A stretch of 24,321 nucleotides of DNA, taken from the NCBI GenBank assembly GCA_046293555.1, contig JBKBOT010000022.1, forward strand, positions 1 to 24,321, read 5' to 3'. The DNA comes from Pyrobaculum sp. GTDB taxonomy: Archaea > Thermoproteota > Thermoprotei > Thermoproteales > Thermoproteaceae. Below the pieces are notes generated by a model. The model ran no database searches. It saw only the letters and a program-made list of their open reading frames with translations, and was not told the DNA's origin. Positions 21 to 20,793 of the stretch are shown here, one piece after another. A program made the translations under genes and the position numbers. The stretch's first letter is position 1, and the number at the start of each line of letters is the position of its first letter.

Positions 21-3000
21 GAATCTCAAAGAGAGGATTGAAAGAGGGGAGGGTATGCATGCTGATTTCGTAATACGCCGGTATCTCCACCGAATCTCAA
101 AGAGAGGATTGAAAGTTTTCTGCTGCGGCGGTAGTATTACCTGCTGTACAGTGGTACTGAATCTCAAAGAGAGGATTGAAAGATTGTATATGCAATGTCT
201 TTCTTTATTTCCAACTCAGACTTCATGAATCTCAAAGAGAGGATTGAAAGGCTCCGCCGCGGCGGGGGGCTCCACCACGCCGTTCTGCATGAAGAATCTC
301 AAAGAGAGGATTGAAAGGCGTTGACGGGGGAAAAAGAGAAAGGGAAAAAAGCGTTATTTTTTGAATCTCAAAGAGAGGATTGAAAGACAGTATCTACATC
401 GCAGGCGGTGGGTGGCGTGGCAATGTATGAATCTCAAAGAGAGGATTGAAAGGTTCATTAACTCTTCCGCATATTCCTTTGTCAATTCAAGCGTGGAATC
501 TCAAAGAGAGGATTGAAAGACGAGATAATCATATGCGGGTGATGTCACATGTGGATCTGGAATCTCAAAGAGAGGATTGAAAGTTTTTACATTTTTCATA
601 CAAGAATTGTAAATACTTATCTTTTATAAGAATCTCAAAGAGAGGATTGAAAGTGACGATCTCGTTAAGGTGTTGAACGCCGACGTCAAATCCCTCGCAG
701 AATCTCAAAGAGAGGATTGAAAGACTAAGACGTCTGTGGGGGTGCTTAGAATAACATTTGTAAGAATCTCAAAGAGAGGATTGAAAGGTGAATTTAGATC
801 CTGTGGCTTTACAAAATTCACACAAGTTATCGAATCTCAAAGAGAGGATTGAAAGATGCCTTTGTCCCAGCCCATGTCTTTGTAACGTTATTTAAATAAG
901 AATCTCAAAGAGAGGATTGAAAGAGAGAAAGGAAAGGAAAAAGATCCAGACTGGCCTCATCTACGCTGGAATCTCAAAGAGAGGATTGAAAGTCGGTAGC
1001 GGATTTCATATGCGTGAGAAGGGCGTTATGGATTTCGGAATCTCAAAGAGAGGATTGAAAGGGCGGCTACCAGGTCATGAGAAAAGGGATTACAATACCC
1101 CTGGAATCTCAAAGAGAGGATTGAAAGTAACACAATGCGCTGCCGTAAGGCCGCCTACGCCTTGTTGAATCTCAAAGAGAGGATTGAAAGAACTTCTCGA
1201 CGTCGATGGATTTGTCTGAGGTGATTGCTACAAATTTAGAATCTCAAAGAGAGGATTGAAAGTTGATTTGTGTTTCTTGGGTTTGAGACATGCTATTAGA
1301 AACATGAATCTCAAAGAGAGGATTGAAAGTGACGGGCACTTGCATAGAGATAAAAACACACATGTATTTAAGAATCTCAAAGAGAGGATTGAAAGCCAGC
1401 TTGCGTGTTTCCTTCTGTTTCTTTAGAGCTTCTAACATCCCGAATCTCAAAGAGAGGATTGAAAGGAAGTAGTATGCCGCGCGGCACTACTGACAAAGTC
1501 CTCAAGCGTGAATCTCAAAGAGAGGATTGAAAGCTACAACACGGCGCCGGGTACCGCAACTAGTGTAGATCCACGTGAATCTCAAAGAGAGGATTGAAAG
1601 TACTTCTTCTGTAGTTCTTCGGCATAGCCCTTTTGATCATCTCTGAATCTCAAAGAGAGGATTGAAAGGCCTGGCGGAATACGCTTTATACGGCGGCGAT
1701 GTTTATGACATGAATCTCAAAGAGAGGATTGAAAGCCGATGTGTCTGTTGCACCGTAGTTTGTCCATTACGCCATCGGCGGAATCTCAAAGAGAGGATTG
1801 AAAGATGACGTGGGCTAGAAAAAAGAAAGAAAAAATATTAAAGGTGAATCTCAAAGAGAGGATTGAAAGGACATCCGGATGAAGATCTTCCAGCTCCTCA
1901 GCGAAATTCGGAATCTCAAAGAGAGGATTGAAAGTATATACCATTTCATATATTCTTTCCCGATCCTGAGTTTGGGCCTGAGAATCTCAAAGAGAGGATT
2001 GAAAGGACTTTTTTCCACCGCCCGTGAACGGTTGCAGACACTATGAATCTCAAAGAGAGGATTGAAAGTTTGCCTCTTTTACAAACTTTTTCTGTGATTT
2101 TTTCAAACTTTTAAGAATCTCAAAGAGAGGATTGAAAGAGCTGTCTGGCGAACATGATGCCCTTCATGGTGAATACGAGAATCTCAAAGAGAGGATTGAA
2201 AGGCTAACATTTACCCCCAGCTCGGCGGCAACGGTCTTCACGGGAATCTCAAAGAGAGGATTGAAAGTCTAACGCGGCAGCGAGAACGCGCAACTCGCCG
2301 TATTCCTCTAGAATCTCAAAGAGAGGATTGAAAGTATTTCCAAACCGGCGGTATATGCGCCGCTTAATTTCTTTGCCATGGCGAATCTCAAAGAGAGGAT
2401 TGAAAGTAAATATGTTTTAACACATTATATATAACGTAATCATCGACATACGAATCTCAAAGAGAGGATTGAAAGGCAATACCGACAATCAACACCGTTG
2501 AGAGAGGTATAACGGTTGGCGGAATCTCAAAGAGAGGATTGAAAGCAGGTAGAACAACACAACGTCCCCCACCAACACGCTATCGCCGGAATCTCAAAGA
2601 GAGGATTGAAAGTTAAGTTGTTGTAAAGCGTTAGCCATATCGTCTAGATCGGCATGAATCTCAAAGAGAGGATTGAAAGATATCTTCCAAGAACATCGCT
2701 GTATAGTGCATTAAGTGTACTAACGAATCTCAAAGAGAGGATTGAAAGATTATATAAAAGTCAGGCTTGAATTCTAATGCCGGTGTTATTTTTGAATCTC
2801 AAAGAGAGGATTGAAAGATTGACGCATAGCGTTTCCGGATGCGATTAACTCCTCTAGGCGGTCGAATCTCAAAGAGAGGATTGAAAGTAACCCCATGGGG
2901 GCTTAGCCCCCATGGGGCTAACTAGAGTTGAATCTCAAAGAGAGGATTGAAAGCGGACCAACCACAGTCGCCTGGGCAGTCCAGCTCTACACAAGACGAA

Positions 3001-3555
3001 TCTCAAAGAGAGGATTGAAAGCATAATGCTGACTATACGCCCTTATCGCTGGGGCCTCAAAACTCGAATCTCAAAGAGAGGATTGAAAGCTCATGAACGT
3101 AAAACGCCTTTTCGTCAGCGACTTTTAATATGAATCTCAAAGAGAGGATTGAAAGTAGAGGATGCGTTACCGCCCATCTTGCTCTGGCAAGCCTTGCCTT
3201 TCAGAATCTCAAAGAGAGGATTGAAAGAGTTTCTTTATGCCGGAATAGCTGTGGCAACGACAGTGTTTCTGAATCTCAAAGAGAGGATTGAAAGCCACTG
3301 TGAGGTTGACAAAATCACGACGGCGTTAATGGACTGGGAATCTCAAAGAGAGGATTGAAAGGTACTCCCTAAACCATCGCCTGTCGAAATGCGTTTCGAG
3401 ATGTGAATCTCAAAGAGAGGATTGAAAGATAACGCATACTGTGTTATAATAAACGCGGCATCGTCCATTTCACGAATCTCAAAGAGAGGATTGAAAGCAC
3501 ACGAAGACCTGGATGGCTGCGGGCGCTGGGCGAATCTCAAAAAGAGGATTGAAAG
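21..3555 (+). CRISPR. CRISPR array, 53 x 24-bp repeat GAATCTCAAAGAGAGGATTGAAAG, 52 full spacers of 39-48 bp; probably continues upstream of the window
   Basis: Repeats counted by eye, first at 21 and last at 3532. The last repeat has a G11A change and a half-repeat GGATTGTAAAG follows at 3589-3599, marking the trailer end. The ATTGAAAG 3' end is the usual Cas6 8-nt handle, implying + strand transcription. Bases 1-20 are a partial spacer. Confidence 0.99.
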
Positions 3556-5029: not shown

Positions 5030-5030
5030 A

Positions 5031-5079
5031 TAGTCTAAAACAGACCAGTTTATATAGAAAACTGGTCTAAAACAGACCA
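5031..5079. promoter_or_regulatory. Two 17-bp palindromic operator-like sites flanking the TATA box of the ATPase gene
   Basis: TAGTCTAAAACAGACCA (5031-5047) and TGGTCTAAAACAGACCA (5063-5079), 32 bp apart, with TTTATATA at 5049-5056 between them. Confidence 0.7.
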
Positions 5080-5918
5080 CTTTCAAGGCGCGAGTAGTGC
5101 ACGTCCAGACGTGCAATGAGCTTTAATAACGTGTTACGGCGTGGCGAACTGAATCGGCCTAGACGGCTGTGAAGACGGGAAGGCTTGTGGAGGTGGCCGC
5201 CGAGAGGGCTCTCCAGCGCCACGGCGTGGGGCCGTCCAGTCTCTACCTAGGACCCCCGCAGAGGACAAGGCGGGAAGCTACCAGCTAGGGAGTCTGCTGC
5301 GTTAACCTCCTCTATCTAAGACAGCGGGAAGCTACTCCTGCCCGCCAGCGGCGTCCCCATCGATACGAGAGAGGGGCGGTGGGGCCCGTCGGCGAGAGTA
5401 TGTGGCTCTTTAACTCGAGGTGTTAAAGGCATTAGAGAGAGGGGCCGGGTCGGCAGTCAGCCCGACAGCACGGCTTGACGCAAGACGTGACGCCAGAAAA
5501 CCGTTTATCAATCCCATCGTGCCCATCGACGTGTGAGTTTACCACAGTGGAGCAGGCCTTGTAAGAGGCGTGCGGCAAGCTGCCTGCCAGCGGCCCCAGA
5601 TAAGACGAAGGCCCCTGACGGCTTGAGACAAGAACCGGGCGGCGACAGGCTGAAGGCCGGGGAGAGGCTGTGGAGACGTTAGGCAGGAGGAGGCGATTTG
5701 TGGGCTCGTCAGGGGCAGTAGTGACGAGAACAGACATTTCGCCGCCGCGCCGAGCTGCGATGAACCCAACGTACAGACCCAACGGGCCTTGTTGACTTAA
5801 GGGGACGGTAATTCTTCCCGCCGCTCCGTTAAGAGCACGACCTCCGGCTGGCCAGAGCGTGAGGGGGACTCATCACGATGGCCGCTCGAGGAGCTGTAAG
5901 ATAAGAGGAGTGACAGGG

Positions 5919-9349: not shown

Positions 9350-9840
9350 CGCTATATGGGAAGCTGAATATAATAGTGACTAGCTAATAAATGATGGTGT
9401 ATATGACTACGACTGGTATTTCTACGGGGTGAAGATCCAAACAGTTCCCGGGACAGTGGCTTATGGGAGCGATAGATCACACATGGGTCAACTACACGGT
9501 ATTTAACCCAAGTACAGATGGCTTGTGGATTACGGCCCAACAACAACTTAAGGCGCAACTACCGTGACGGTGATTCTTACAGCTGTGGCAGGTCCTGAAG
9601 GGCCCTCAGTAGGCTGTAGCGTATCACACCGTTACTGATGGCTTGACAGAAGCGACTTTAGCGTTCACAGAGCTTTTTGGAAGCATGATATAAACAGCAC
9701 CAAATCTGTCGGCCAGTATACATACTTAGTAAAACCTGGCTTTGTCGTCAAGACAAGGCAGAATGTTCGCTAGTGGACGGGTGGTACTAAGTACAGTGGA
9801 GCCGCCCCGTCTGGTGGTGGCGGGAGTCTGTATATGTAAA
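9350..9840 (+). pseudogene. Decayed beta-rich extracellular domain with several stops and frameshifts
   Basis: Frame-hopping translation gives NDGVYDYDWYFYGVKIQTVPGTVAYGSD / DHTWVNYTVFNP / WLVDYGPTTT*GATTVTVILTAVAGPEGPSVG / DRSDFSVHRAFWKHDIN...YLVKPGFVVKT / LVDGWY*VQWSRP. Confidence 0.7.
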
Positions 9841-10195
9841 CATCAACCCTCAACGGCTAGACGCTTGTTACACCACCTCGCCTGACCAACTATTTTAACC
9901 CACCTCGTTTTTCCTATATCTGTCTCGGCGCCGTTTTGTTATTAATTCAACCCGGGAGCTTTGAGCTTTAACGCACCTTACCTAACAAATGGCATATTGC
10001 CATTCTGCCTCATAGATGGCCTCATCTTTGGTGAGCCGCATGTTTTTGGCCATGTGGGGAGCGTCCTCTCACATGGGGACGCGTCGCCGAGTGGCTTCAC
10101 ATAAAGCCCCACTGCGACGCGTCGCCGTGGTTTTCATACGATTTAATGCCACGTCTGTGACGTGATTAATTGTGTCTGTGGCTATATGTGGTGAG

Positions 10196-10933
10196 TTACA
10201 GTACTTTTGTCCTTTCTTTTACGTTTTCTATTAGCCAGACCCCCATCTCTTGTGCCTTTTCTACCGTGCCCGGTGTGGCCACCATGCAGTATAGCACCGC
10301 CACCACTCTGCCGGGGAATTTCTCCGGCCATCTCTCTAACGCCCTCTTCACCCTATTTACAGTCTTTACCACAGTTTTTGCGCCAGCTTTCGTCTTAGCC
10401 TCACCCACCACAGTCAAGTCGCCGGTGGTACAATATACGTCAAACTCATATTTCCTATCCAGCCAAAGTCTCCCCGGCGTGCACTTAATCCCCCTCTCTT
10501 TTAGAAGCCACTCCACCACCTCCCTCGCCTCCTCCTCCAAGGTGATCATAATCCTATTAATCTGCTCCTTAGTGGCCATCCTATCCTCAACCCTCTTCAA
10601 ATCCTCCTTAGTGGCCATAGTCTTCTCGATTCTCTCCACTCTTTCCTCCAGCTTTCTCAACTCCTCTCTAATCTTCTCTAGTTCTTCTCTTGTGGCCATT
10701 TCTTTTCTTATCTGTTGGATGTCTTCTTTTGTGGCTGTGTTTAGTGGCACCGCTATTGTTTTTGCCATTTCTGTGGCCAGCCTTAATCTTGCCTGCGGGT
10801 CTGCCAGAATGGCGTCTAACAACCTGCCGCCATCTATGGCATCGAGAATTACGCCGCGGAGAAACTCTCTATCCTCTTGTAGCAACCTTGTGAGAGCCTC
10901 CTTAAGAACCTCTAAAGACAGCGAGGTAGACAC
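10196..10933 (-). CDS. ATK-repeat (beta-layer) coiled-coil protein with C-terminal PD-(D/E)XK nuclease domain, short paralog (245 aa)
   Basis: Four xAT(K/R)E(D/E/Q) motifs, then EEEAR...YEFDVYC...VVGEAK. TATTTAA lies about 25 bp upstream of the GTG. Confidence 0.85.
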   Translation of the reverse strand: MSTSLSLEVLKEALTRLLQEDREFLRGVILDAIDGGRLLDAILADPQARLRLATEMAKTIAVPLNTATKEDIQQIRKEMATREELEKIREELRKLEERVERIEKTMATKEDLKRVEDRMATKEQINRIMITLEEEAREVVEWLLKERGIKCTPGRLWLDRKYEFDVYCTTGDLTVVGEAKTKAGAKTVVKTVNRVKRALERWPEKFPGRVVAVLYCMVATPGTVEKAQEMGVWLIENVKERTKVL

Positions 10934-11020
10934 GTCATCACATCTGTAAGTTTAGTTAAATATTTTCTTTCTCTAAACTACAGCACAGCATCTCCACACT
11001 TTTAGAAATCTCTTAGCCAG

Positions 11021-11144
11021 AAGAACGCAGCTTGTTAACGCCCTTGATATGTTAAGCCCCCTAGGCGGGGGCCCTACAGCCACCCCATAGAGATGCCGAA
11101 ATGGGCGGAAACCCCTGGACTCAAGAAAGACAGAGACAGGCGGA
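11021..11144. other. Conserved non-coding element (candidate ncRNA or CRISPR-leader-like sequence), copy A
   Basis: 119/124 identical to 17121-17244; contains the hairpin GCCCCC-TAGGC-GGGGGC. Confidence 0.6.
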
Positions 11145-12340: not shown

Positions 12341-12531
12341 ATCTCTCCAACCTTACAACAACTTAAATACCGCCCCAAAGCCGGCAGAAACGTCGTACAG
12401 CCACCGCCGAAGCCAACAGCCATAACGCACAAAAAGGACGATAAAAACTAGATACAAAAAAAGCTCATGACGTCTAAAACGGTGAAACAGCCAAAGAAAA
12501 TAAAACCCCCAAAACAATTCCAGAAGCCCCA

Positions 12532-12619
12532 GAGTCTCAAAAATCGCGGCAAATCCTAAGACACTTTACGAATCTCAAAGAGGGGGCTAAAAGCAGACGT
12601 CCTTGAAATCTCAAAAAGA
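12532..12619 (+). CRISPR. Orphan degenerate CRISPR-repeat cluster 1 with A-rich leader-like upstream sequence
   Basis: GAGTCTCAAAAA at 12532, GAATCTCAAAGAGGGGGCTAAAAG at 12570-12593 (20/24 to the consensus) and AAATCTCAAAAAGA at 12606-12619. Confidence 0.7.
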
Positions 12620-12673
12620 TAAGCAATAAAAAAGGGGTCTTGCCCACATGTTGGGGGTTTCTAGAGAGAGGTT

Positions 12674-13990
12674 TTATTTCCACCACATTTCTAGTATGTT
12701 GCGGTATACGTTAACCACGTAGTCAGCTGCCTTGCCTGTAGGTATTTTCTTGATTACTTCCAGCCTCTCTACGTCTACTACATACACGGCGTGGTCTTTG
12801 TTGTTATTTATATAGGCCTTTTTGCCGTCTAACGTAAATGCCACATGGCCGGAGTTCTTCCCGTCTCCCGCCTTTATTTCTTTTATCTTCTCGTGTGTTT
12901 TTGTGTCTATTACAGCTACTGTGTTGTCATTATAACAACCGACAAAGATATACCTCCCGTCTGGGGAGAGATATGGGTGTCCCGCCCCGTTTCCCACTTC
13001 AATCCTCTTGATTACCCGTCGGGTGGATGTCTCTATTACAAATAGGCTTCTCCCGCCGAAATGTGGGGGCGGGCCTCGGTTCGCGTAGTAGAAGTATTTC
13101 CCGTCTGAGGAGAAAACTCCGTGATGTCCCTCTACTGGCTCCCCTGGCGGCACGGAGATAGTTATCTTGTCTACTATAGACATCGTGGAGAGGTCTAATA
13201 TCGCCACCGCGGGCGGTATGTCGCCTTTACCTTCAAGTACAATCCACACCTCCTTGTTGTCTCTTGTGGCGACGAAATAGTGGGGACGGCTCTCCATTTG
13301 TAACGTCTTTACTATCTCAAACCGCGGCGCCTCGATGACAAAGACCACGTTTTTTATAAAATCTTGGGCAAAGAGGTATTTACTATCCCACGTCCATCCG
13401 GGGTGCATCATTGCCTTCTCGGCCGGGAGCTCTAGAGTTTTTACTATCGTGTCAGTAGTTGTGTCTATGATTACAGTTTTGTTATCTCTGTCGTGATTTG
13501 CGGCCACATATCTCCCGTTAGGTGATACCACTGGGTGATTCGGCCTTTCTCCCACAGTGATGGTTTTTATAACTTTTAAATTGACAGTATCGACAACTGC
13601 GATATCTACGCCGCCTCTATTGGACACGTATAGTTTCTTCCCGTCGGGAGTCATGCCGGAGAGGCTAGGGCCAGAGCCTGTGACTATTGTTTTTATAACC
13701 TCATCGGTCTTTGTGTCAATTACAGAAAGCGTGTTCTCTCCCCTGTTGGGCACAAAAACAAATCTTCCATATTCCCAAGCCGGCAGCGCTTCTGATGGCG
13801 TCACAGTGACAGTCTGTGTGACAGTACGTTCTACAGTCTTAGTCTCTGTCTTTACCTCAGTCTTTGTCTCAACGACTGTTCTTGGGAAGGCTTGCGAGCC
13901 GATGGCGGCGCCTACCACAAGGCCAATAATCCCGCCGGCTGCCGCTTTTAGGAAATCTCTTCTGCCTTCTCTCTTCTCTTCTCTAGCCAT
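12674..13990 (-). CDS. Tat-exported YVTN/YncE-like beta-propeller, His-rich, probable metal (Cu)-binding protein
   Basis: RRDFLK twin-arginine signal plus hydrophobic helix, Thr/Val-rich linker, and repeats such as TPDGKKLYVSN, SPDGRYIFV and VIDTKT. Confidence 0.88.
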   Translation of the reverse strand: MAREEKREGRRDFLKAAAGGIIGLVVGAAIGSQAFPRTVVETKTEVKTETKTVERTVTQTVTVTPSEALPAWEYGRFVFVPNRGENTLSVIDTKTDEVIKTIVTGSGPSLSGMTPDGKKLYVSNRGGVDIAVVDTVNLKVIKTITVGERPNHPVVSPNGRYVAANHDRDNKTVIIDTTTDTIVKTLELPAEKAMMHPGWTWDSKYLFAQDFIKNVVFVIEAPRFEIVKTLQMESRPHYFVATRDNKEVWIVLEGKGDIPPAVAILDLSTMSIVDKITISVPPGEPVEGHHGVFSSDGKYFYYANRGPPPHFGGRSLFVIETSTRRVIKRIEVGNGAGHPYLSPDGRYIFVGCYNDNTVAVIDTKTHEKIKEIKAGDGKNSGHVAFTLDGKKAYINNNKDHAVYVVDVERLEVIKKIPTGKAADYVVNVYRNILEMWWK

Positions 13991-14189
13991 ACGGCAAGTT
14001 TACACATTTATTAAAAAACGTTGTTATCTAGCCATATGGGAATAATTTTTTAAAATTTTATACAAAAGTTTAGTGAATATTCTTTTTTCGAGATAACGCC
14101 GTTTTTGAGGTCGTCGTTGTGATTTTATCTACTGTTATATTTTTTTACACATAGCCACTATGTTTAAAAATTGTAGAGAGTGGAGACGA

Positions 14190-14696
14190 GTGAAGAAGAG
14201 GGGTAGGGTAAAGAGTGGGAGAAATGGCGTCTTGCTTTATCTTTCTGTCGCTGCTGTGGCTTTGTTGTTATTGGCGTTAGGGCTTGCCACGAGGGCGCCG
14301 AGCCAGCCCTCTGGCGGCATGATTCCGGCGGGGCTTTCAGTCTATAAGACTCCACAGTGTGGATGTTGTGAAGAATATGTAAACTATCTGAAGGGCTTGG
14401 GCGTAGAGGTAAAGGTAGTGACTGTGAGCGAAGAGGAGTTGTCAAATCTCAAGACGAGACTTGGGATACCGGCCCAGTTGTCTAGTTGCCATACTTCTAT
14501 TGTAGAGGGCTATTTTGTTGAGGGGCACGTCCCCATGGAGGCAATTATAAAGCTTATAAAAGAACGGCCGGGGGTAGATGGCATAGCGTTGCCGGGGATG
14601 CCACAAGGCTCGCCGGGGATGGGGGGCGAGAAGAGAGGTCCGTTTAAGATTTACGCCAAGAGAGGCGATTTGATATTTGTATTTACAGAGATCTAA
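14190..14696 (+). CDS. DUF411 (CopG-like) exported metal-binding protein
   Basis: YKTPQCGCC, SCHT, VEGHVP and ALPGMPQGSPGM motifs; N-terminal TM/signal segment. Start GTG 14190 follows TTTAAAAA at 14163-14170. Confidence 0.92.
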   Translation: MKKRGRVKSGRNGVLLYLSVAAVALLLLALGLATRAPSQPSGGMIPAGLSVYKTPQCGCCEEYVNYLKGLGVEVKVVTVSEEELSNLKTRLGIPAQLSSCHTSIVEGYFVEGHVPMEAIIKLIKERPGVDGIALPGMPQGSPGMGGEKRGPFKIYAKRGDLIFVFTEI

Positions 14697-15282
14697 ATAT
14701 TTACCCGCCGGTTATATTTACCTACCGGCCTGTCCCCGCTGCGGCTGTTTTTAGTGTGACGTTATGGCTTGTTGTATGTCTATATGTAGGTCTTGTCGCC
14801 GTGACGTGAGGGGCTTTATATCCAGTAGAGGCGGTAGCATACATGGGTCTGGGGGCAGCGGGGCTCGGTTGTCTTTCTGTTAGGACTTAGCCACGAGGTC
14901 TCTATACGTTCTTCTTAATCTCGTTTAAGGCCGCCGTATATAGCCTTTGAGGTCTTTTCACATCGTCTCTCAAAACACCTCACGAGAGAGGCTGAGGTAG
15001 GGAGACTTTCTATGACGTCTGTAAGACCTCTGGACATTCTAGTTCTGCAGGCAATGGTGAAAGAGCTTAATGCCGAGTTTTCCGCCTCCCGCCGCCTTGA
15101 TTATATTTGTGCTGGCTGTAGGCCTTTCGGCTCCAGAGGGCTGAGTGCGACGCGTAGGAGCTTTAATCTACGTTTGCCGCCAGATAGGCCTCTGCGACGG
15201 CTTCTTGTCATAACTGTGACGTGTGGTCTCTGCGGCCGCCTTCCTCGGTAATTAAGGTTTAATATGAACATTATTATTCGCC

Positions 15283-15825
15283 GTGGTGTCAGCTAGGGCG
15301 ACTGTTATCACGTCTGACCTGAGGTCAAGTATCTGTCAGCTGGCTTAACCTCGTTACTGGTCCTATAGATGCGGGCTTTGGCTTGGCCTTGCTACGCCTT
15401 TATTGGGCAGGCGACGCCCTTGGCTGAGTACCTATGTGGACCAAGCGAACTGTTGTGCCTAACCCCAAGCTGGCCTCCAGCCCGCCGTGGGTGGACATAA
15501 TATTATCCTCATGTCAGGGGGCTTGCCAAGCCTATCGGCGTAAGCGATTGGACGCTTGGATCTTTTAGATCGCCTTATAATTCTACAAGCCCATTGCCGA
15601 CGTGGTCACTACAGAGTTTGTCTTTTTAATCATGCTTGTAGACAATCTGCCAAAGGCGCCTCAGTGGCTGCCAGAGGGTTTAAAAAACTGCCATTGTCCT
15701 CCTGGGCGCCAAGACTCTCTTTACAGACTGGTATGGAGGCTCTATTAGTTATGGTTCTTATCTCTTTCCCCGTTATGCTTTTGGCGACGCCTATCTTTCT
15801 TTACAAAATACAGATCTTAGCGTAA
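15283..15825 (+). pseudogene. Decayed membrane-protein gene, possibly an MFS transporter
   Basis: TTTAATA at about 15258, then GTG; hydrophobic fragments in shifting frames ending MEALLVMVLISFPVMLLATPIFLYK. Confidence 0.35.
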
Positions 15826-15994
15826 TGGCGGCTGAGGGTATAGGGATTCGTGGCGTCTCTGCCGCCGAGATTAACCATCACGACGTAGACTCAAAAAAGA
15901 TGGCATTTCGAAAAAATGTCAAGAGCCGATGAATCGCGTTGTATAAAACCCCGCTAGAGGAAAAACCTCTAAAAACAAACGCCTAAAAGCCCCA

Positions 15995-16033
15995 GAGTCT
16001 CAAAAAGAGGGTTGAAAAAGAGAGGGTTGAAAG
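15995..16033 (+). CRISPR. Orphan degenerate CRISPR-repeat cluster 2 with leader-like upstream sequence
   Basis: GAGTCTCAAAAAGAGGGTTGAAAA at 15995-16018 (20/24) fused to a second 3' part AAAGAGAGGGTTGAAAG at 16017-16033 (16/17). Preceded by AAGCCCCA, as in cluster 1. Confidence 0.75.
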
Positions 16034-16043
16034 ACATACAATT

Positions 16044-17244
16044 GCCGTGATTCTCAACGATTTAAGGCCGTTCTGCGCCGTGTTTAATTGTGTCTAGAGC
16101 GCTTTTGTCCTCTCCTTTCTGTCTTCTATAAGCCAGACTCCCAGCTCTTGTGCCTTTTCTACCGTGCCCGGCATAGCTATCATGCAGTACAACACCGTGA
16201 TTACTCTGCCGGGGAATCTCTCCGGCCACCCCCTCATGGCTTCTTTCACCCTATTTGCCGTATCTTCCACAGTGTTTGCACTAGCCCGCACCTTGGCCTC
16301 GCCGACGACAGTCATCTCTCCGGTGGTGCAATATACATCAAACTCGTACTGGCTGTCAAGCCAAAGCCTCCCCGGCGTACACTCAACCCCCCTCTCTTTT
16401 AGAAGCCATTTCACTACCTCCCTCGCCTCCTCCTCTAAAGCGATAATAATTCTCTCAATTTGTTCCTTAGTGGCCATCTTGTCTTCAAGTCTCTTCAAGT
16501 CCTCCTTAGTAGCCATTCTGTCCTCAAGTCTTTTTAACTCCTCCTTTGTCGCCATTCTGTCTTCAAGCCGCTTTAAGTCTTCTTTTACAGCTATCTCAAG
16601 TCTCTTCAAATCCTCCTTAGTCGCCATAGTCTTCTCGATTCTCTCCACTCTTTCCTCTAGCTTTCTCAAATCCTCTTTTGTGGCCATCTGGCTTCTTACC
16701 TCCTCGATTTTTGTTGTCATCTCTTGTCTAATCTTCTCTAGGTCTTCTTTTGTCGCCATCTCCTGCCTAATCTTCTCTAACTCCTCTTTTGTTGCCATTT
16801 CTTTTCTTATTTGGTCAATGTCTTCTTTTGTGGCCACGTTTAACGGTATTGTGATGATTTTAGCCATCTCTGTGGCTAGTCTTAGTCTTACCTGTGGGTC
16901 TGCCAAAATGGCGTCTAGAAGTCTGCCGCCATCTATAGCTTCAAGAATTACGGCGCGAAGAAAGTCTCTATCTGTTTGTAGCAGCTTTGTGAGAGCCTCC
17001 TTAAGGGCCTCTAAGGACAGCGAAGTGGACACGACACTACATTTGTAAGTTATTAAATACCTTCCCTTCTCTAGGCTAAAGTACAGTGTCTTCACACTTT
17101 TAGAAATCTCTCTTGGCCGGAAGAACGCAGCTTGTTAACGCCCTTGATATGTTAAGCCCCCTAGGCGGGGGCTCTACAGCCACCCAATAGAGATGCCGAA
17201 ATGGGCGGAAACCCCTGGGCTCAAAAAAGACAGGGACAGGCGGA
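16044..17244. repeat. Duplicated cassette, copy B; paralog of 10124-11144
   Basis: Same end points as copy A; longer because of extra 39-bp repeat units in the gene. Confidence 0.9.
16094..17032 (-). CDS. ATK-repeat (beta-layer) coiled-coil protein with C-terminal PD-(D/E)XK nuclease domain, long paralog (312 aa)
   Basis: Eight xATKE motifs plus MTTK and AVK variants, mostly on a 13-aa period; YEFDVYC...VVGEAK. Start GTG 17032 by alignment to the paralog and the TATTTAA position. Confidence 0.85.
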   Translation of the reverse strand: MSTSLSLEALKEALTKLLQTDRDFLRAVILEAIDGGRLLDAILADPQVRLRLATEMAKIITIPLNVATKEDIDQIRKEMATKEELEKIRQEMATKEDLEKIRQEMTTKIEEVRSQMATKEDLRKLEERVERIEKTMATKEDLKRLEIAVKEDLKRLEDRMATKEELKRLEDRMATKEDLKRLEDKMATKEQIERIIIALEEEAREVVKWLLKERGVECTPGRLWLDSQYEFDVYCTTGEMTVVGEAKVRASANTVEDTANRVKEAMRGWPERFPGRVITVLYCMIAMPGTVEKAQELGVWLIEDRKERTKAL

Positions 17245-17253
17245 ACAGTCCCA

Positions 17254-17339
17254 GAATCTCAAAAAGAGAAAGCGTCGATAATGTATTCTCCCTCACCGTC
17301 ATCGCCAATCGGCGTGAGTCTCAAAGAGAGAGTTAACAT
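17254..17339 (+). CRISPR. Degenerate repeat-spacer-repeat mini-array (cluster 3)
   Basis: GAATCTCAAAAAGAGAAAG at 17254-17272 (repeat lacking GATTG), a 43-bp spacer at 17273-17315, and GAGTCTCAAAGAGAGAGTTAACAT at 17316-17339 (18/24). Confidence 0.7.
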
Positions 17340-17667
17340 GAATTGAATGCCGTGGACTATATTTAATCAAAAAGACCAAAAGATCCAGGGACGTAGCGTG
17401 GCGACCAGCCGTGAAAGACTTTTGAAAGCGACGACGTCATTTCCATACACCCCGCCGGCTATCTGGCCGGGGTGGAGGCACAAGGCGCCGCGGATGTTAA
17501 CCGACAAGCCACTATCCTCTCTCCTTGTTGCCTTACCCCCCGCAGCCACAAAGCCGTCAGACGTCAAGCCTTGGAGACGTCATTTCTTCATCTCATTTTT
17601 CCATGAAAAAGTGGCGAAAAGTCAACACGCCCCATGCTAGACGCCGTTGTGACATGTGGCCTCCCCT

Positions 17668-18830
17668 CTACCTCCCTTCTCCAAGGAATATTATCGCTCC
17701 CCACAAATCCCCACTGAAGACCTTTACTAACTTCCCATCTTCCACTTTGTATAGTATCACATTGTTTATTAAATTCAGCCAATGGGTCGCGTAGTGCAAT
17801 AGCCCCTCTGCTATCGGGGCGTATGTCAACCTGCCGGGCATGCCTGTATAGTACCTGCCGGCGGGGTCTAATATCGCTATCTTTCCCCCATCTGCCGTCA
17901 TCACCGCGGCGTGACCGTCGAACCAGATGTAGAACACTAACAGCCAGACCTCACGTTCTCTCCCAGCTATGTATGTATCATACGCTTTGATCATGGCATA
18001 TAGCAGTATGGCCATATCTTCACAGTCCCCCGCCCTCCGCTCTAGCGTCACCTTCGGCGGCGCGATATATTCGCGACGCCACTTGACCTCAAAATCGCCA
18101 CTCTGAAGGTCTTTTGCCGACGGCGGTACCGGCAGGGGGGAGTCCCCAATATACCTGATGTTTTCAACGAGTGGTAAAACGCGTAGAGGGCCTCCAGCCT
18201 CCCCTTATTGCCAGCCAGCTGCCTCACTACATCCAACACGTCGTGGACGTCCTCCTCACCTAGCTTTGCCCTGTCTATATAGAGCAGTGAGAGCATCACC
18301 TCACGCCACCTCTCATAGTTCTCCGCGAAGTTCGTAAGACGTCTAACTGCCTCCATATAGCTTTCATTCAACTCTCTATATCTCCCCCACAGCTCCCCAT
18401 ACCTTTTCTGCAACTCATCGTATTCTCCACGCAGGTTCGTAAGACGTCTAACTGCCTCCACGTAGCTCTTATTCAACGCGTCATATCTCCCCTGCAGCTC
18501 CCTATATTTTCCCCACAGCTCTTCATATCTCTTCTGCAACTCGCTGTGTTCTTCACGCAGTTTTGAAAACGCTGCATTTGTAGACGTGAGTTCTTGCAAA
18601 AGTGAGTAATATGTCTCTCGCATCTCGACGTACTTTCTCTCAAAGTTTCTGTGCCTCGTCTCGAGGAGTATGTACTTTGTCTCAAGGTCTTTGTACTTCT
18701 TCTCAACTTCTTGATATTTATTGATGACGGCGTTGTATTGTATTAACAACGCGACTATTATTGCGCCCAAGGCGAGATATATAATTACTATTGCGCGTAA
18801 GGCGGAATGTATAAACTTGTCATCCTTCAT
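17668..18830 (-). pseudogene. Membrane-anchored coiled-coil plus transglutaminase-like (Cys-His-Asp) protein split by one frameshift
   Basis: N-terminal TM helix and heptad stalk with a 105-bp internal duplication (18331/18436). Adding 1 nt at about 18170 gives FYHxVENIRYIGDSP...EYIAPPKVTLERRAGDCED...GHAA...ILDP (about 387 aa). Confidence 0.85.
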
Positions 18831-19138
18831 GTTAAAAGAAAAGTGTATATATATTTACAAGAGCCGCTAATGACACATGCCGGCTAGTTAAGAAAAAGAC
18901 TGAAACTCTCGGCGTAAAACATAACGCTAAGCCCTTCCCTTGGCCACGCCCCGGCGACACCCCGCGGAATTCCCCTTGTAAAAACAGACACACGTCCGGC
19001 GCCGTGTTGTATTATGTCGCCGATCGTGACGTCTAAACCCCCGCCGGGGGCGCCCCATGTAGATGCCGGCCAGCGCGTGGCATATCGCATGCTCAACGAC
19101 ATACACCGCCGAAAGTAGAGATATCGCGCGGCGGCTTT

Positions 19139-19477
19139 CTACTTTACGAAATATTCCATTGTCTTTGATACTATATCGATATACAGTATTGGCACCACTT
19201 TAGAGAGTTCTTCAGGTGGTAGATCCAGCTGCTTTCCAAATAGCACCAACGCCACCGGCACCTGTCTATAGATGGACCAAAGCATTACTTGTCCCAGCCC
19301 ACAAGCCAGCCTCTCCACAGGCTCGACCTCTACATACACGTCGCCACACTTCAAATCCGCACGCCAAGGCCCAACCGACACCTCTTTCTCACAACTAAAG
19401 GCATCTTTGACACAACCCTCATCTATTTTAAGACAAAGCTCCAAAACACGGGGGTTAAAAAACCTCAGAAGGTCCAT
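19139..19477 (-). CDS. Small PD-(D/E)XK restriction-endonuclease-fold protein
   Basis: EKEV...RADLKC...YVEVE...GLGQVMLW, resembling the ExK...GQxxxY Mrr/NucS-type pattern with the Lys replaced by Glu. Confidence 0.6.
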   Translation of the reverse strand: MDLLRFFNPRVLELCLKIDEGCVKDAFSCEKEVSVGPWRADLKCGDVYVEVEPVERLACGLGQVMLWSIYRQVPVALVLFGKQLDLPPEELSKVVPILYIDIVSKTMEYFVK

Positions 19478-19530
19478 AAATGATGAAGTCTCGGGGAGGT
19501 GGACAGATGACGGCGGTTATCCCGCTGACT
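19478..19530 (+). ncRNA. Box C/D sRNA (2'-O-methylation guide), probably targeting 23S rRNA domain VI
   Basis: C ATGATGA 19480-19486, guide AGTCTCGGGGAGG, D' TGGA, C' CAGATGA, guide CGGCGGTTATCCCG, D CTGA 19525-19528. The guide complements GGGATAACCGCYG and CCCCGAGA resemble, from memory, neighbouring 23S segments around GAAAGCATCTAAG. Confidence 0.82.
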
Positions 19531-20392
19531 AATGGACATCATACTCCACAACAGGCTCCACAACAGGCTCTCCAACCCACTCAACCACCTCCTTGTAAAA
19601 CTCCTCTAGGACGTCACTAAGAGCTTTATACCCTGTAGTAACCCTCTTGCCTTCTGCCGTAATTCTTGTGAGTGCCACACTCTTAGGAATTACAACATCA
19701 AACCTTGGGATGTCAACGTTAAATTTTTCATTTAGCAACTCGGGCTTCCTACCTTCATTTGTAGTCTTTTCTACCTTGTTTATCAACAGGCGTGTTTTCG
19801 ACCTGACCTTATCTCTGTCGCCCTCTACCCCCCTAACAAGTTTTTCATACATCCTCCTGAGGCGGTAGGGCTCGGCCCCATAGGGCTGGGTCACAATTAT
19901 GACCTTATCCGCGGCAGCAAGCGACGCCAAGGTATAACGTGGCTCATAAAACGGCACCGTGTCTAAAACTATAAAGTCCCAACCCTTTCTGAAATTTTCA
20001 ACAAATTTCCTAATTCGCTTTGCCGGCTCTAGATAACTACCTCCCCATATCTTCACCATGACGTCAGCAATCTCGTCCCCGCCGGGGATCAACTCCACCT
20101 CTCTCCCGTCTATATAGATGGAAATTATGAAATTCCTCAAATCTACATGTTCCCCCTTTATAAGCGACTGCAAGATATCCCCCACAGTCTTCTTCCCATC
20201 TTCTAACCTAGCCACCTCTATATCTCCCAAAAGCTGGACACTAAGCCCGGCGCTGGGATCCAAGTCAATCAGAAGAGTCCTCTTCCCATTGTGGGCCAAC
20301 ATGTACGCCAGATATATCGCCAAGGTAGTCTTCCCAACACCTCCGCCAGCCGATATGAACGAGATAATCCGCCCGCCGGCATCATTTGACAT
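19529..20392 (-). CDS. ParA/MinD-family ATPase
   Basis: SAGGGVGKTT, LLIDLDPSA, LIPG, IVLDTVP, AADKVII and LINK motifs. Start ATG 20392 with ATATATAAA about 25 bp upstream. Confidence 0.92.
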   Translation of the reverse strand: MSNDAGGRIISFISAGGGVGKTTLAIYLAYMLAHNGKRTLLIDLDPSAGLSVQLLGDIEVARLEDGKKTVGDILQSLIKGEHVDLRNFIISIYIDGREVELIPGGDEIADVMVKIWGGSYLEPAKRIRKFVENFRKGWDFIVLDTVPFYEPRYTLASLAAADKVIIVTQPYGAEPYRLRRMYEKLVRGVEGDRDKVRSKTRLLINKVEKTTNEGRKPELLNEKFNVDIPRFDVVIPKSVALTRITAEGKRVTTGYKALSDVLEEFYKEVVEWVGEPVVEPVVEYDVH

Positions 20393-20793
20393 AATATAAC
20401 TCTCACAGAGATTTATATATTTTACCCAAATATCTAATTCAGACAAATCTTTACACAAATCAACCACACACACAGTCCAGCCCATCCAGACGCGACTCAA
20501 AACACCCAAAAAGCACGAAACAGCAACGCCGCCACAGAGGGGCGGCGCCTTTCCCCCACGCACGTTCCCACTAACCACCCCCCGCCAGGTCTCCCGCCGC
20601 GTTGGGCTACAGAAAGAGGCGTGGCCTCAAGGCTCAACTTTCCTACCCCGCTGCCGCACAGCGGCGCCCCCTGGGCCTTGCTCACCTCCTCTCGTGGGGG
20701 CCCTGGACACCCCCGATATCCACACACGTCGGCACCCCGCCTGGCGGCCGTAGGCCGCCCACGGTAGAGATAAAAACCAGAAGACATACGCCG

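What the first reader, a model, noticed from the sequence alone, without database searches (positions are those of the whole stretch)
15995..17339. A 1.2-kb coiled-coil nuclease cassette sits between CRISPR repeats like a giant spacer
Seen: the limits of the duplicated cassette (16044-17244, defined independently by alignment to copy A) fall 10 bp after a repeat end (16033) and 9 bp before the next repeat (17254). A normal-length 43-bp spacer and another repeat follow. All repeats are co-oriented with the main array, and a leader-like tract precedes the first. Inference: either the gene was inserted or captured at the leader-proximal position of a small array, or nuclease plus mini-array is a functional unit. 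In the latter case a leader transcript would be antisense to the nuclease mRNA, or repeat-derived guides could control it, by analogy with CreTA/CreR CRISPR-regulated toxin loci. I do not recognise this layout as a named system.
Basis: partly seen in the sequence, partly recalled or inferred. Interest (0 to 1): 0.85.

Follow-up and report, generated by a model that had tools for sequence, protein, structure and literature searches.

The report
Gene between decayed CRISPR array remnants
A working copy of a multi-copy archaeal nuclease-like gene lies between two dead, mutated leftovers of CRISPR arrays; this looks like a recombination accident in a CRISPR-rich genome region and not a new CRISPR-controlled gene system.

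Summary
A 1.2-kb cassette (16044-17244) is a paralog of 10124-11144. On its left is a diverged CRISPR leader, a 4-mismatch repeat and a partial repeat (15854-16033). On its right are 10 leader-end-like bases, a repeat with a 5-nt deletion, a 43-nt spacer and a 6-mismatch repeat (17244-17339). Contigs from a public run bridge both junctions.

The "functional unit" reading is not supported.
- The flanking repeats differ at positions that are nearly invariant in 330 repeats of this genome, and the 8-nt handle is lost on the right side.
- The conserved leader promoter box is degraded or absent.
- The spacer matches the cassette no better than shuffled versions do, and no spacer in the genome hits the cassette.
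- Arrays or repeats near homologs are rare: 0 of 28 family loci, 1 of 80 metagenome loci, and 2 of 20 loci at ±10 kb.

The gene (DUF8196: helical N-terminus, MATKEDL coiled coil, PD-(D/E)XK-like C-terminus) is intact and under purifying selection (dN/dS 0.15). The left cassette end is a truncation, not an element end.

Best reading: two dead mini-arrays and a paralogous gene were brought together by recombination or deletion.

One oddity remains. In this genome all four DUF8196 copies lie within 2.1 kb of repeat-like sequence, although only 4.2% of the genome does.

The parts
21..3555 (+). Main CRISPR array: 53 repeats of GAATCTCAAAGAGAGGATTGAAAG. It runs off the contig start, and the last repeat has the AAAAA core variant.
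   Evidence: The repeat matches Pyrobaculum direct-repeat family I with the ATTGAAAG handle, as printed in PMC3396285.
10124..11144 (-). Cassette copy A. It holds the DUF8196 gene 10196-10933 (245 aa), with fewer coiled-coil units than copy B.
   Evidence: P0004, PF26618
11398..11859 (-). PDDEXK_10 / DUF3782 protein gene upstream of copy A. It is absent from the copy B locus.
   Evidence: PF07788, E=1e-17
12463..12629 (+). M1, a third decayed mini-array: a weak leader followed by three repeat remnants (13, 20 and 15 of 24 matches) at shortened spacing.
   Evidence: (E=0.028)
15854..15994 (+). Diverged CRISPR leader of mini-array M2. Its promoter box has 3 mismatches and sits 21 nt from the repeat instead of 28-30 nt.
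   Evidence: E=1.6e-5; the leader-repeat junction matches relatives at 81-84%
15995..16033 (+). M2: a degenerate repeat (15995-16018, 4 mismatches) followed directly by a copy of repeat positions 9-24 (16018-16033).
16034..16043 (.). 10 nt (ACATACAATT) between M2 and the start of homology with copy A. Origin unknown.
16044..17244 (-). Cassette copy B. Compared with copies A and C37 it is cut short on the left (the 3' flank of the gene).
16094..17032 (-). DUF8196 gene, 312 aa from GTG: helical N-terminal part, about ten 13-aa MATKEDL units, and a PD-(D/E)XK-like C-terminal domain (D232, E245, K247).
17051..17060 (-). A/T-rich box about 20-28 nt upstream of the GTG, likely the gene's own TATA box. 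This is an inference.
   Evidence: read from the sequence; a similar A/T box sits at the same place in copy A
17101..17244 (.). Non-coding tract that is 135 of 144 identical to copy A, while synonymous sites of the gene have dS 0.75. Probably a recent gene-conversion tract.
   Evidence: (D13)
17244..17253 (+). 10 nt that resemble the end of a leader (8 of 10 to 15985-15994).
   Evidence: (D17)
17254..17272 (+). M3 repeat 1: the first 15 nt are exact, GATTG is missing, then AAAG. The 8-nt handle is destroyed.
17273..17315 (+). 43-nt spacer of M3. It has no match elsewhere in the genome.
17316..17339 (+). M3 repeat 2: 18 of 24 matches, with 4 of the 6 changes in the handle.

Best explanation
Copy B of a multi-copy DUF8196 gene is an ordinary, self-sufficient gene. 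It has its own A/T-rich promoter box and an intact reading frame under purifying selection. It happens to lie between two dead CRISPR mini-arrays in a stretch of the contig (12.4-17.4 kb) that holds three such remnants.

- Left remnant (M2): a complete 'empty' array made of a diverged leader, one repeat and the partial repeat that also closes other arrays in this genome.
- Right remnant (M3): the start of a second array that kept only the last 10 nt of its leader, a damaged first repeat, one spacer and a degenerate last repeat.

Recombination or deletion removed most of the M3 leader and part of the cassette's 3' flank, which brought the three pieces together. A recent gene-conversion tract from or to copy A ends exactly at the right junction. 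Nothing is guided or regulated by CRISPR here.

Shown: the anatomy, the decay of the repeats and promoter box, the lack of spacer-target pairing, the lack of conservation around homologs, and selection on the gene.
Inferred: the order and mechanism of the rearrangements, and the silence of the remnants.
For: 1. Repeat decay. Across 330 repeats of this genome (3 mismatches or fewer), every position except 10-11 is at least 99% invariant. M2 differs at positions 3, 17 and 24. M3 repeat 1 lacks 5 nt. M3 repeat 2 differs at positions 3, 16, 17, 20, 22 and 24. Rfam finds only the M2 repeat, below the gathering score, and neither M3 repeat at E of 1 or less.
2. Promoter decay. The box AAAAACTTAAAAA is reported as ultra-conserved in 37 Pyrobaculum arrays (PMC3396285, passages seen). 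It has 0-2 mismatches at 28-30 nt from the first repeat in 11 other leaders of this genome. In M2 it has 3 mismatches and is displaced, in M1 it needs 4 edits, and in M3 it is absent.
3. No guide-target relation. The longest match of the M3 spacer to the cassette is 7 nt, and 481 of 500 shuffles do as well. None of the 297 spacers matches 16044-17244 or copy A.
4. Not conserved around homologs. Repeat-like sequence or arrays were found in 0 of 28 family loci (1.5-kb flanks), 1 of 80 metagenome loci and 2 of 20 loci at ±10 kb.
5. Stand-alone stubs are common here. Units of a leader plus one repeat lie next to unrelated genes at C4, C17 and C26. The repeat-plus-partial-repeat end recurs at C4, C34 and, more loosely, C37, and in another genome of the genus.
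6. The left cassette end is a truncation. There are no terminal inverted repeats.
7. The gene is functional. dN/dS is 0.15 against copy A with dS 0.75, and the catalytic-type residues are conserved.
8. Degenerate, unexpressed arrays are already listed for Pyrobaculum species (PMC3396285, Table 2 passage).
Against: 1. Both cassette ends lie within 10 nt of a repeat boundary. Random rearrangement does not predict that precision, and I could not explain it.
2. M3 repeat 1 keeps 15 of 15 bases and M2 keeps 20 of 24. That is better than neutral decay over the age of the A/B split would leave (about 7 changes per 24 nt expected from dS 0.75, my estimate). Either the junctions are younger than the gene duplication or the repeats are homogenised.
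3. Within this genome, all 4 DUF8196 copies and 2 of 4 PDDEXK_10 loci lie within 2.1 kb of repeat-like sequence, while only 4.2% of the genome does. Multi-copy DNA in general is not enriched there once these genes are removed (6.7% against 6.0%).
4. No expression data exist for the locus.
Confidence: 0.62

Rival explanations
1. One small array (leader, repeat, spacer, repeat) was split when the cassette was inserted at the leader-repeat junction, duplicating the last 10 nt of the leader plus the repeat. The route could be single-crossover integration of a circle carrying a leader-repeat junction, or an aberrant staggered-cut integration. The result is a dead array with a 'giant spacer' and no function.
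For: Two leader-end-plus-repeat junctions in direct orientation flank the cassette (15985-16009 and 17244-17268, 22 of 25 identical; D17). The 10 nt before 17254 are leader-like, and 0 of 297 spacers are. M3 has no leader of its own and M2 has no spacers, so together they make one complete array.
Against: Normal spacer integration duplicates the repeat only, not leader bases (established knowledge, not tested here). The 'insert' would have to start with a partial repeat, a structure that elsewhere in the genome sits directly behind a full repeat as an array end. The left end of the cassette is truncated relative to copies A and C37. There are no inverted terminal repeats and no integrase or cas1 gene inside the cassette. 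No empty-site form was seen in the laid contigs, although contigs drop rare variants.
Confidence: 0.2
2. In this lineage, DUF8196-type (and PDDEXK_10-type) nuclease genes have a real affinity for CRISPR leader-repeat sequences. Either the genes spread by recombination that uses the dispersed leader and repeat copies, or repeat-like stretches in their own MATKEDL-coding units, as portable homology. Or the proteins act on repeat DNA in a homing-like way. The stubs next to them would then be scars of such events.
For: Distances from the four DUF8196 copies to the nearest repeat-like sequence are 87, 1637, 1885 and 2090 nt, while 4.2% of the genome lies that close. On contig C103 an exact repeat sits 1 nt behind the stop codon of a coiled-coil PDDEXK_10 gene and is preceded by a 44-nt copy (43 of 44) of that gene's own 5' part. 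The enrichment is not a general property of multi-copy DNA. The sequence coding for the E-D-L-K motif (GAGGAYTTGAAR) resembles the repeat's 3' half GAGGATTGAAAG (read). In another genome of the genus, a repeat-like GAAT...AGGATTGAAAG lies about 80 nt behind a DUF8196 homolog.
Against: The effect is absent in relatives: 0 of 28 loci, 1 of 80 loci, 2 of 20 loci, and for PDDEXK_10 loci 0 of 29 with arrays. The copies sit in only two or three neighbourhoods (C22, C37, C103), and copies A, B and the C37 fragment are recent kin, so the counts are not independent. The geometry differs from case to case (convergent, divergent, tandem). DUF8196 and PDDEXK_10 show no profile similarity, so pooling them was my own post hoc choice. 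The remnant in the other genome is an 11-nt match of a kind expected about once per genome by chance.
Confidence: 0.1
3. The remnants are a working regulatory module of the CreTA/CreR kind, or an antisense module. A leader-driven + strand transcript from M2 would be antisense to the 3' end of the nuclease mRNA, or a guide from M3 would direct a Cas effector to the gene's promoter.
For: M2 points into the 3' end of the gene, 60 nt away. Its partial repeat keeps a near-canonical handle (GTTGAAAG). Degenerate two-repeat mini-arrays that regulate toxins or cas genes are known (abstracts of PMC8501985 and 10.1101/2023.03.03.530964). A cas1 gene exists elsewhere in the genome.
Against: The M3 spacer has no complementarity to the cassette or its promoter region above chance. 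Both M3 repeats have lost the handle, whereas CreA repeats are reported to keep the nucleotides needed for Cas6 processing (abstract). The promoter box is degraded. No cas gene was seen among the 26 larger ORFs of the window that I scanned. The layout is not conserved near homologs. The regulated partner would be a 312-aa protein under purifying selection, not a small RNA toxin.
Confidence: 0.04

Closest known systems
Degenerate CRISPR arrays of Pyrobaculum (Bernick et al. 2012, PMC3396285; passages seen)
   Same: The repeat family is the same (GAAT CTC AAAGA/AAAAA GAG G ATTGAAAG) and so is the leader promoter box. Arrays marked 'degenerate array', without crRNA counts, are listed for P. aerophilum and P. 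arsenaticum.
   Different: Here three remnants lie within 5 kb, two of them hug a gene cassette to within 10 nt, and one keeps only 10 nt of its leader. I saw only passages of the paper, not its figures or supplements, so I do not know whether it describes leader-plus-single-repeat stubs.
CreTA / CreR regulatory mini-arrays (PMC8501985; 10.1101/2023.03.03.530964; abstracts seen)
   Same: Two degenerate repeat-like sequences flank one spacer, outside a normal array and next to a gene that could be harmful (a nuclease-like protein).
   Different: Those elements keep the bases needed for Cas6 processing, carry a spacer partly complementary to the target promoter, lie inside cas loci and are conserved between related loci. 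None of these four features holds here.
Solitary repeat units and mini-arrays of viruses and other mobile elements (PMC10651486, PMC6858448, PMC11656645; search listing and starts of abstracts only)
   Same: Single repeats or one-spacer arrays away from cas genes.
   Different: Those lie on viral or mobile genomes and are intact enough to act. Here no DUF8196 relative was found in the viral contig collection, PHROGs gave no viral family for the neighbours except a ParA-like protein, and the repeats are decayed.
Paralogous coiled-coil PD-(D/E)XK gene families of Thermoproteaceae (DUF8196 = PF26618; PDDEXK_10 = PF07788 with DUF3782)
   Same: The gene belongs to DUF8196 according to the precomputed Pfam label on the window's own protein. 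It occurs in several copies per genome in 22 of 28 relatives. Like PDDEXK_10 proteins it combines ATKEDL-type repeats with a restriction-endonuclease-like domain.
   Different: No function has been tested for either family, and a full-text search for 'DUF8196' found 0 papers. hhalign sees no relation between the two families.
Casposons / Cas1-mediated integration
   Same: A DNA segment sits between directly repeated target sequence at a leader-repeat junction.
   Different: The segment has no cas1 gene and no terminal inverted repeats. The duplicated stretch would be about 34 nt including leader bases, which matches neither spacer integration nor casposon duplications (recalled knowledge).

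Membership tests
Functional CRISPR array (Pyrobaculum repeat family I) | Two or more near-identical repeats separated by spacers of about 37-51 nt | tested here: not met
   M2 has one repeat (20 of 24) plus a partial copy and no spacer. M3 has a repeat with a 5-nt deletion and a repeat matching at 18 of 24. The genome's 330 repeats are at least 99% invariant at 22 of 24 positions.
Functional CRISPR array (Pyrobaculum repeat family I) | Leader with the promoter box AAAAACTTAAAAA about 29 nt before the first repeat | tested here: not met
   M2 has 3 mismatches and the box sits 21 nt away. M3 has no box within 80 nt. Eleven other leaders of the genome have 0-2 mismatches at 28-30 nt. The box is taken from PMC3396285.
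Functional CRISPR array (Pyrobaculum repeat family I) | 8-nt 3' end of the repeat (ATTGAAAG) that becomes the crRNA 5' handle | tested here: inconclusive
   The M2 partial repeat keeps GTTGAAAG (1 change). M3 repeat 1 lacks it and M3 repeat 2 reads GTTAACAT. Processing itself was not testable.
CreTA/CreR-type regulatory mini-array | Spacer partly complementary to the promoter of the regulated gene | tested here: not met
   The longest match of the M3 spacer to 15900-17253 is 7 nt, and 481 of 500 shuffles reach that.
CreTA/CreR-type regulatory mini-array | Flanking degenerate repeats retain the bases needed for Cas6 processing | tested here: not met
   The handle region is deleted or changed at 4 of 8 positions in the two M3 repeats. 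This is judged from sequence only.
CreTA/CreR-type regulatory mini-array | Located within or next to a cas operon | tested here: not met
   No Cas family appeared among the 26 window ORFs scanned with Pfam, NCBIfam or PADLOC. The only Cas1 match is on contig C57. Smaller ORFs were not scanned.
CreTA/CreR-type regulatory mini-array | Conserved next to the partner gene in related loci | tested here: not met
   0 of 28 family loci, 1 of 80 metagenome loci, and 2 of 20 loci at ±10 kb.
DUF8196 (PF26618) | Match to the family model | tested here: inconclusive
   The protein database carries PF26618.1 as a precomputed label for the window's own protein and for all 120 listed relatives. The local Pfam copy did not report it at E of 0.01 or less, perhaps because the model is newer than that copy.
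PD-(D/E)XK nuclease fold | Alpha-beta-beta-beta-alpha-beta core with a D...(D/E)xK motif | tested here: met
   In the AlphaFold model, residues 200-305 have pLDDT of 91-98 with helix, three strands, helix, strand. The Foldseek top hits are NucS/EndoMS, Can2/Card1 and restriction enzymes, with weak whole-chain E-values of 0.014-1 and probability up to 1.00. E230 and E245 are invariant, and D232 and K247 are at least 90% conserved, in 36 sequences. Catalysis was not tested.
Transposon / casposon / other self-mobile element | Own transposase, integrase or Cas1, terminal inverted repeats, and defined ends shared by copies | tested here: not met
   The cassette has a single gene and no such domain. 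There are no terminal inverted repeats. The left ends of copies A, B and C37 differ.

The most novel reading that the evidence does not exclude
In this lineage, coiled-coil PD-(D/E)XK genes (DUF8196, and perhaps PDDEXK_10) and orphan CRISPR leader-repeat stubs are linked by mechanism. The genes would spread into or next to leader-repeat junctions, either by recombination that uses the dispersed CRISPR sequences as homology or because the nuclease acts on repeat DNA. They would leave dead mini-arrays behind. The 'giant spacer' would then be one scar of a selfish gene family that feeds on CRISPR loci.
Probability: 0.1. Interest if true: 0.7.

Novelty: new member of a known kind. Interest (0 to 1): 0.27.

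Why it matters
Taken at face value, a protein gene sitting as a 'spacer' in a CRISPR array would suggest a new way of capturing or controlling genes. The evidence says otherwise. The flanking CRISPR pieces are decayed, are not conserved around relatives, and have no target in the gene, so the locus should not be counted as a new CRISPR-linked regulatory system.

Three things remain useful:
- a documented example of how arrays die and are rearranged in Thermoproteaceae;
- a catalogue of leader-plus-one-repeat stubs with a recurrent 'repeat plus partial repeat' end;
- a within-genome co-location of DUF8196 genes with such stubs, which could be followed up once closer genomes or RNA data exist.

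Tried and rejected
- Empty-site search. A DNA search of 17 genomes of the genus with window 12600-20600 found no syntenic locus. Only gene-internal matches and leader-repeat matches came back.
- Sequencing runs. One run (X1) holds 73% of the sampled words. No RNA holder is listed. X2 and X3 laid nothing. No joint that skips the cassette was seen, but contigs drop rare variants.
- The conserved tract 17101-17244 as an RNA or small protein. Rfam gave nothing at E of 1 or less. Folding z-scores were +0.20 (+ strand) and -1.62 (- strand). Small ORFs differ between the two copies beyond the shared DNA. There is no match in 28 relatives. I read it as a conversion tract.
- 'AAAGCCCCA' beside copy A as a leader remnant. 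Rejected, because it is one arm of a 26-nt hairpin.
- The leader profile gave no hit at 17100-17253 or next to copy A at E of 10 or less.
- Sequences following the partial repeats at M2, C34, C4 and C37 show no similarity to each other.
- 'Junkyard' idea, that stubs sit in generally repeat-rich DNA. Not supported: 6.7% multi-copy DNA near stubs after removing the nuclease genes, against 6.0% genome-wide.
- DUF8196 against PDDEXK_10 with hhalign: probability 0.16%.
- PADLOC and PHROGs gave only coiled-coil-level matches for the cassette protein.
- The viral contig scan found no relative.
- The Cas6 Pfam model PF01881 found nothing in the genome, but it also rings in only 4 of 14 control genomes and not in the Sulfolobus control, so this says little.
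- My first gapless repeat scan of the 80 metagenome loci missed an array with a different repeat in L039. A later scan and a de novo detector found it, so the count is 1 of 80, not 0.
- Near-matches to half-repeats in homolog loci mostly fall in the K-D-L-K coding units and were not counted as CRISPR remnants.
- Supplementary files of the papers were not opened. The supplements of PMC3396285 may list degenerate arrays in more detail.
Full report
**What the window is.** The window is a whole 24,321-bp contig (C22) of a 1.75-Mb, 145-contig genome assembled from a hot-spring metagenome. The family holds 29 genomes including this one in three genera. The closest named protein relatives are from Pyrobaculum and Thermoproteus. 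The contig starts inside a CRISPR array of 53 repeats (21-3555, + strand) with the unit GAATCTCAAAGAGAGGATTGAAAG. This unit is direct-repeat family I of Pyrobaculum, whose last 8 nt ATTGAAAG become the crRNA 5' handle (PMC3396285, passages seen).

**The observation.** The cassette is real. 16044-17244 aligns with 10124-11144 in three blocks at 77%, 94% and 84% identity, with indels only in the 39-nt coiled-coil units, and all similarity stops at both ends.
- Left side. A profile built from eight good leaders of this genome hits 15854-15994 (E=1.6e-5). Then comes a repeat with 4 mismatches (15995-16018), a direct copy of repeat positions 9-24 (to 16033), and 10 further bases.
- Right side. 17254-17268 equals the first 15 nt of the repeat. 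GATTG is missing, AAAG follows, then a 43-nt spacer and a repeat with 6 mismatches (17316-17339).
- A third remnant of the same kind (M1) lies at 12463-12629.
- Contigs of a public run bridge both junctions (15986-16384 and 17189-18072), so this is not a chimera of this one assembly. The run is probably the source sample, however.

- The 10 nt before 17254 match the last 10 nt of the left leader at 8 of 10. None of 297 real spacers of the genome reaches 8 of 10 against any leader end, and none ends in CCCA. The right remnant therefore begins with a first repeat and the stump of a leader, not with the tail of a spacer.
- Copy A and a third partial copy at the end of contig C37 share about 45 more bases beyond the point where copy B's homology stops. 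The left limit of copy B is therefore a truncation and not the end of a unit.

**The gene.** 16094-17032 (- strand, 312 aa) is intact. The protein database labels it and all 120 listed relatives PF26618 (DUF8196). The local Pfam and NCBIfam copies give only coiled-coil noise. It has three parts:
- a helical N-terminal part;
- about ten 13-residue MATKEDL units, 67 residues more than copy A;
- a C-terminal domain modelled at pLDDT 91-98.

The nearest solved folds to that domain are NucS/EndoMS, Can2/Card1 and restriction enzymes (whole-chain E-values are weak at 0.014-1, probability up to 1.00). E230 and E245 are invariant, and D232 and K247 are at least 90% conserved, in 36 relatives. 'Nuclease-like' is therefore fair, but activity is untested. 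Against copy A, dN/dS is 0.15 with dS 0.75. Both copies have been kept by selection for a long time. In contrast, the 144 non-coding bases at the right end of the cassette are 135 of 144 identical and occur in none of 28 relatives. I read that tract as recent gene conversion, and it ends exactly at the right junction.

**Are the flanking CRISPR pieces alive?**
- Among 330 repeats of the genome, all positions but 10-11 are at least 99% invariant. The three flanking repeats differ at such positions, and both right-hand repeats have lost the handle.
- The promoter box AAAAACTTAAAAA is reported as ultra-conserved in 37 Pyrobaculum arrays. It has 0-2 mismatches at 28-30 nt from the first repeat in 11 other leaders here. 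In M2 it has 3 mismatches and is displaced, in M1 it needs 4 edits, and in M3 it is absent.
- Rfam sees only the left repeat, below threshold.
- Degenerate arrays without crRNA counts are already listed for two Pyrobaculum species.
- No RNA run was available for this locus.

**Is there a guide-target relation?** The longest match of the 43-nt spacer to the cassette and its flanks is 7 nt, and 481 of 500 shuffles do as well. It matches nothing else in the genome, and none of 297 spacers matches the cassette or copy A. This removes the central feature of CreTA/CreR-type mini-arrays, where a spacer is partly complementary to the target promoter (abstracts).

**Is the layout conserved?**

| Set of homolog loci | Flank | With arrays or repeat-like sequence |
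|---|---|---|
| DUF8196 loci in family genomes | 1.5 kb | 0 of 28 |
| DUF8196/coiled-coil loci in genomes that carry this repeat | ±10 kb | 2 of 20 |
| Metagenome loci | up to 2.5 kb | 1 of 80 |
| PDDEXK_10 loci | 1.5 kb | 0 of 29 arrays; one 6-mismatch match |

- The family-loci scans covered four Pyrobaculum repeat families and a de novo array detector.
- My first gapless scan missed the one metagenome array, which has a different repeat.
- These scans would miss single repeats with indels. One such candidate (GAAT...AGGATTGAAAG) lies about 80 nt behind a DUF8196 homolog in another genome. A match of that size is expected about once per genome by chance.

**How the layout may have arisen.** Stubs of a leader plus one repeat stand next to unrelated genes on C4, C17 and C26 (a transporter, an oxidoreductase and a beta-propeller protein). 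A full repeat followed at once by repeat positions 9-24 is also seen at C4, at the last repeat of a 6-repeat array on C34, more loosely on C37, and in another genome of the genus. The left remnant therefore looks like a complete, empty array with its usual end, and the cassette lies behind it and not inside it. The right remnant is the start of another array whose leader is gone. On copy A's side, a PDDEXK_10 gene and then the M1 leader follow the cassette in the same divergent arrangement. One simple path is a duplicate of that arrangement followed by a deletion that ends 10 nt before the first repeat, but the sequences are too diverged to test this. A rival path is insertion at a leader-repeat junction with duplication of leader end plus repeat. 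It fits the two direct junctions (22 of 25 identical) but not the partial repeat or the truncated left end. I cannot explain why both ends fall within 10 nt of a repeat boundary.

**An unexplained residue.** In this genome the four DUF8196 copies lie 87, 1637, 1885 and 2090 nt from repeat-like sequence, and two of four PDDEXK_10 loci lie 26 and 711 nt away. Only 4.2% of the genome is within 2.1 kb of such sequence. Multi-copy DNA in general is not enriched near the stubs once these genes are removed (6.7% against 6.0%). On the 1.3-kb contig C103, an exact repeat sits 1 nt behind the stop codon of a coiled-coil PDDEXK_10 gene and is preceded by a 44-nt copy of the gene's own 5' part. These cases come from two or three neighbourhoods, involve recent paralogs, differ in geometry and are not echoed in relatives. 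I therefore give a real mechanistic link about one chance in ten.

**Verdict.** The sequence observation is correct and well above chance. The exciting interpretation is not supported. The locus is best filed as decayed CRISPR remnants around a selected paralog of an uncharacterised nuclease-like family. Interest is low to moderate.

Noticed in passing
window 16018-16033; G000 contigs C4:21441-21481, C34:5271-5310, C37:2112-2148; L177 about 1500-1545: A full repeat followed directly (0-1 nt) by a copy of repeat positions 9-24 recurs at the far end of arrays and of leader-plus-one-repeat stubs. It is seen in this genome and in at least one other genome of the genus. It looks like a conserved array terminus.
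   Followed up: partly
G000 contig C103 (locus L137) 331-1176: An exact CRISPR repeat (opposite strand) lies 1 nt after the stop codon of a 257-aa coiled-coil PDDEXK_10 gene. Beyond it is a 44-nt stretch that is 43 of 44 identical to codons about 20-34 of the same gene. There is no leader and no second repeat on the contig.
   Followed up: partly
window 17101-17244 and 11001-11144: This non-coding tract is 94-95% identical between the two cassette copies, although synonymous sites of the adjacent genes have dS 0.75. It is absent from 28 relatives and has no Rfam hit or significant fold.
   Followed up: yes
window 16464-16836: Copy B has expanded its 39-nt (13-aa MATKEDL) units and is 67 residues longer than copy A. 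The E-D-L-K coding string GAGGAYTTGAAR resembles the 3' half of the CRISPR repeat, which produces inverted repeats between the stubs and the gene body.
   Followed up: partly
G000 contigs C19, C21, C25, C35, C50, C52, C61, C66 and others: Dozens of spacers from the genome's own arrays match these contigs at 90-100% over 30-51 nt. The contigs are probably viruses, plasmids or integrated elements binned with the genome.
   Followed up: no
window 4248-4275: A 28-nt spacer of the mini-array on contig C113 matches, with 2 mismatches, the AAA_14/DUF4143 ATPase gene (3776-5116). That gene scores E=8e-79 against the PADLOC candidate defence family PDC-S01 and sits right after the main array.
   Followed up: no
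window 19139-20578 and G000 contig C67:566-1829: A ParA-like ATPase gene and a 112-aa gene are duplicated as a pair (37% and 57% protein identity). In both places the pair lies 1-2 kb from a degenerate repeat.
   Followed up: no
G000 contig C37:11356-12126: A serine resolvase gene lies 149 nt from a leader-plus-one-repeat stub, between that stub and the diverged DUF8196 copy at 9702-10367.
   Followed up: no
window 10072-10129: Copy A carries a 38-nt insertion flanked by the direct repeat GACGCGTCGCC. It forms a hairpin with 26-nt arms behind the gene. The C37 copy lacks it.
   Followed up: partly
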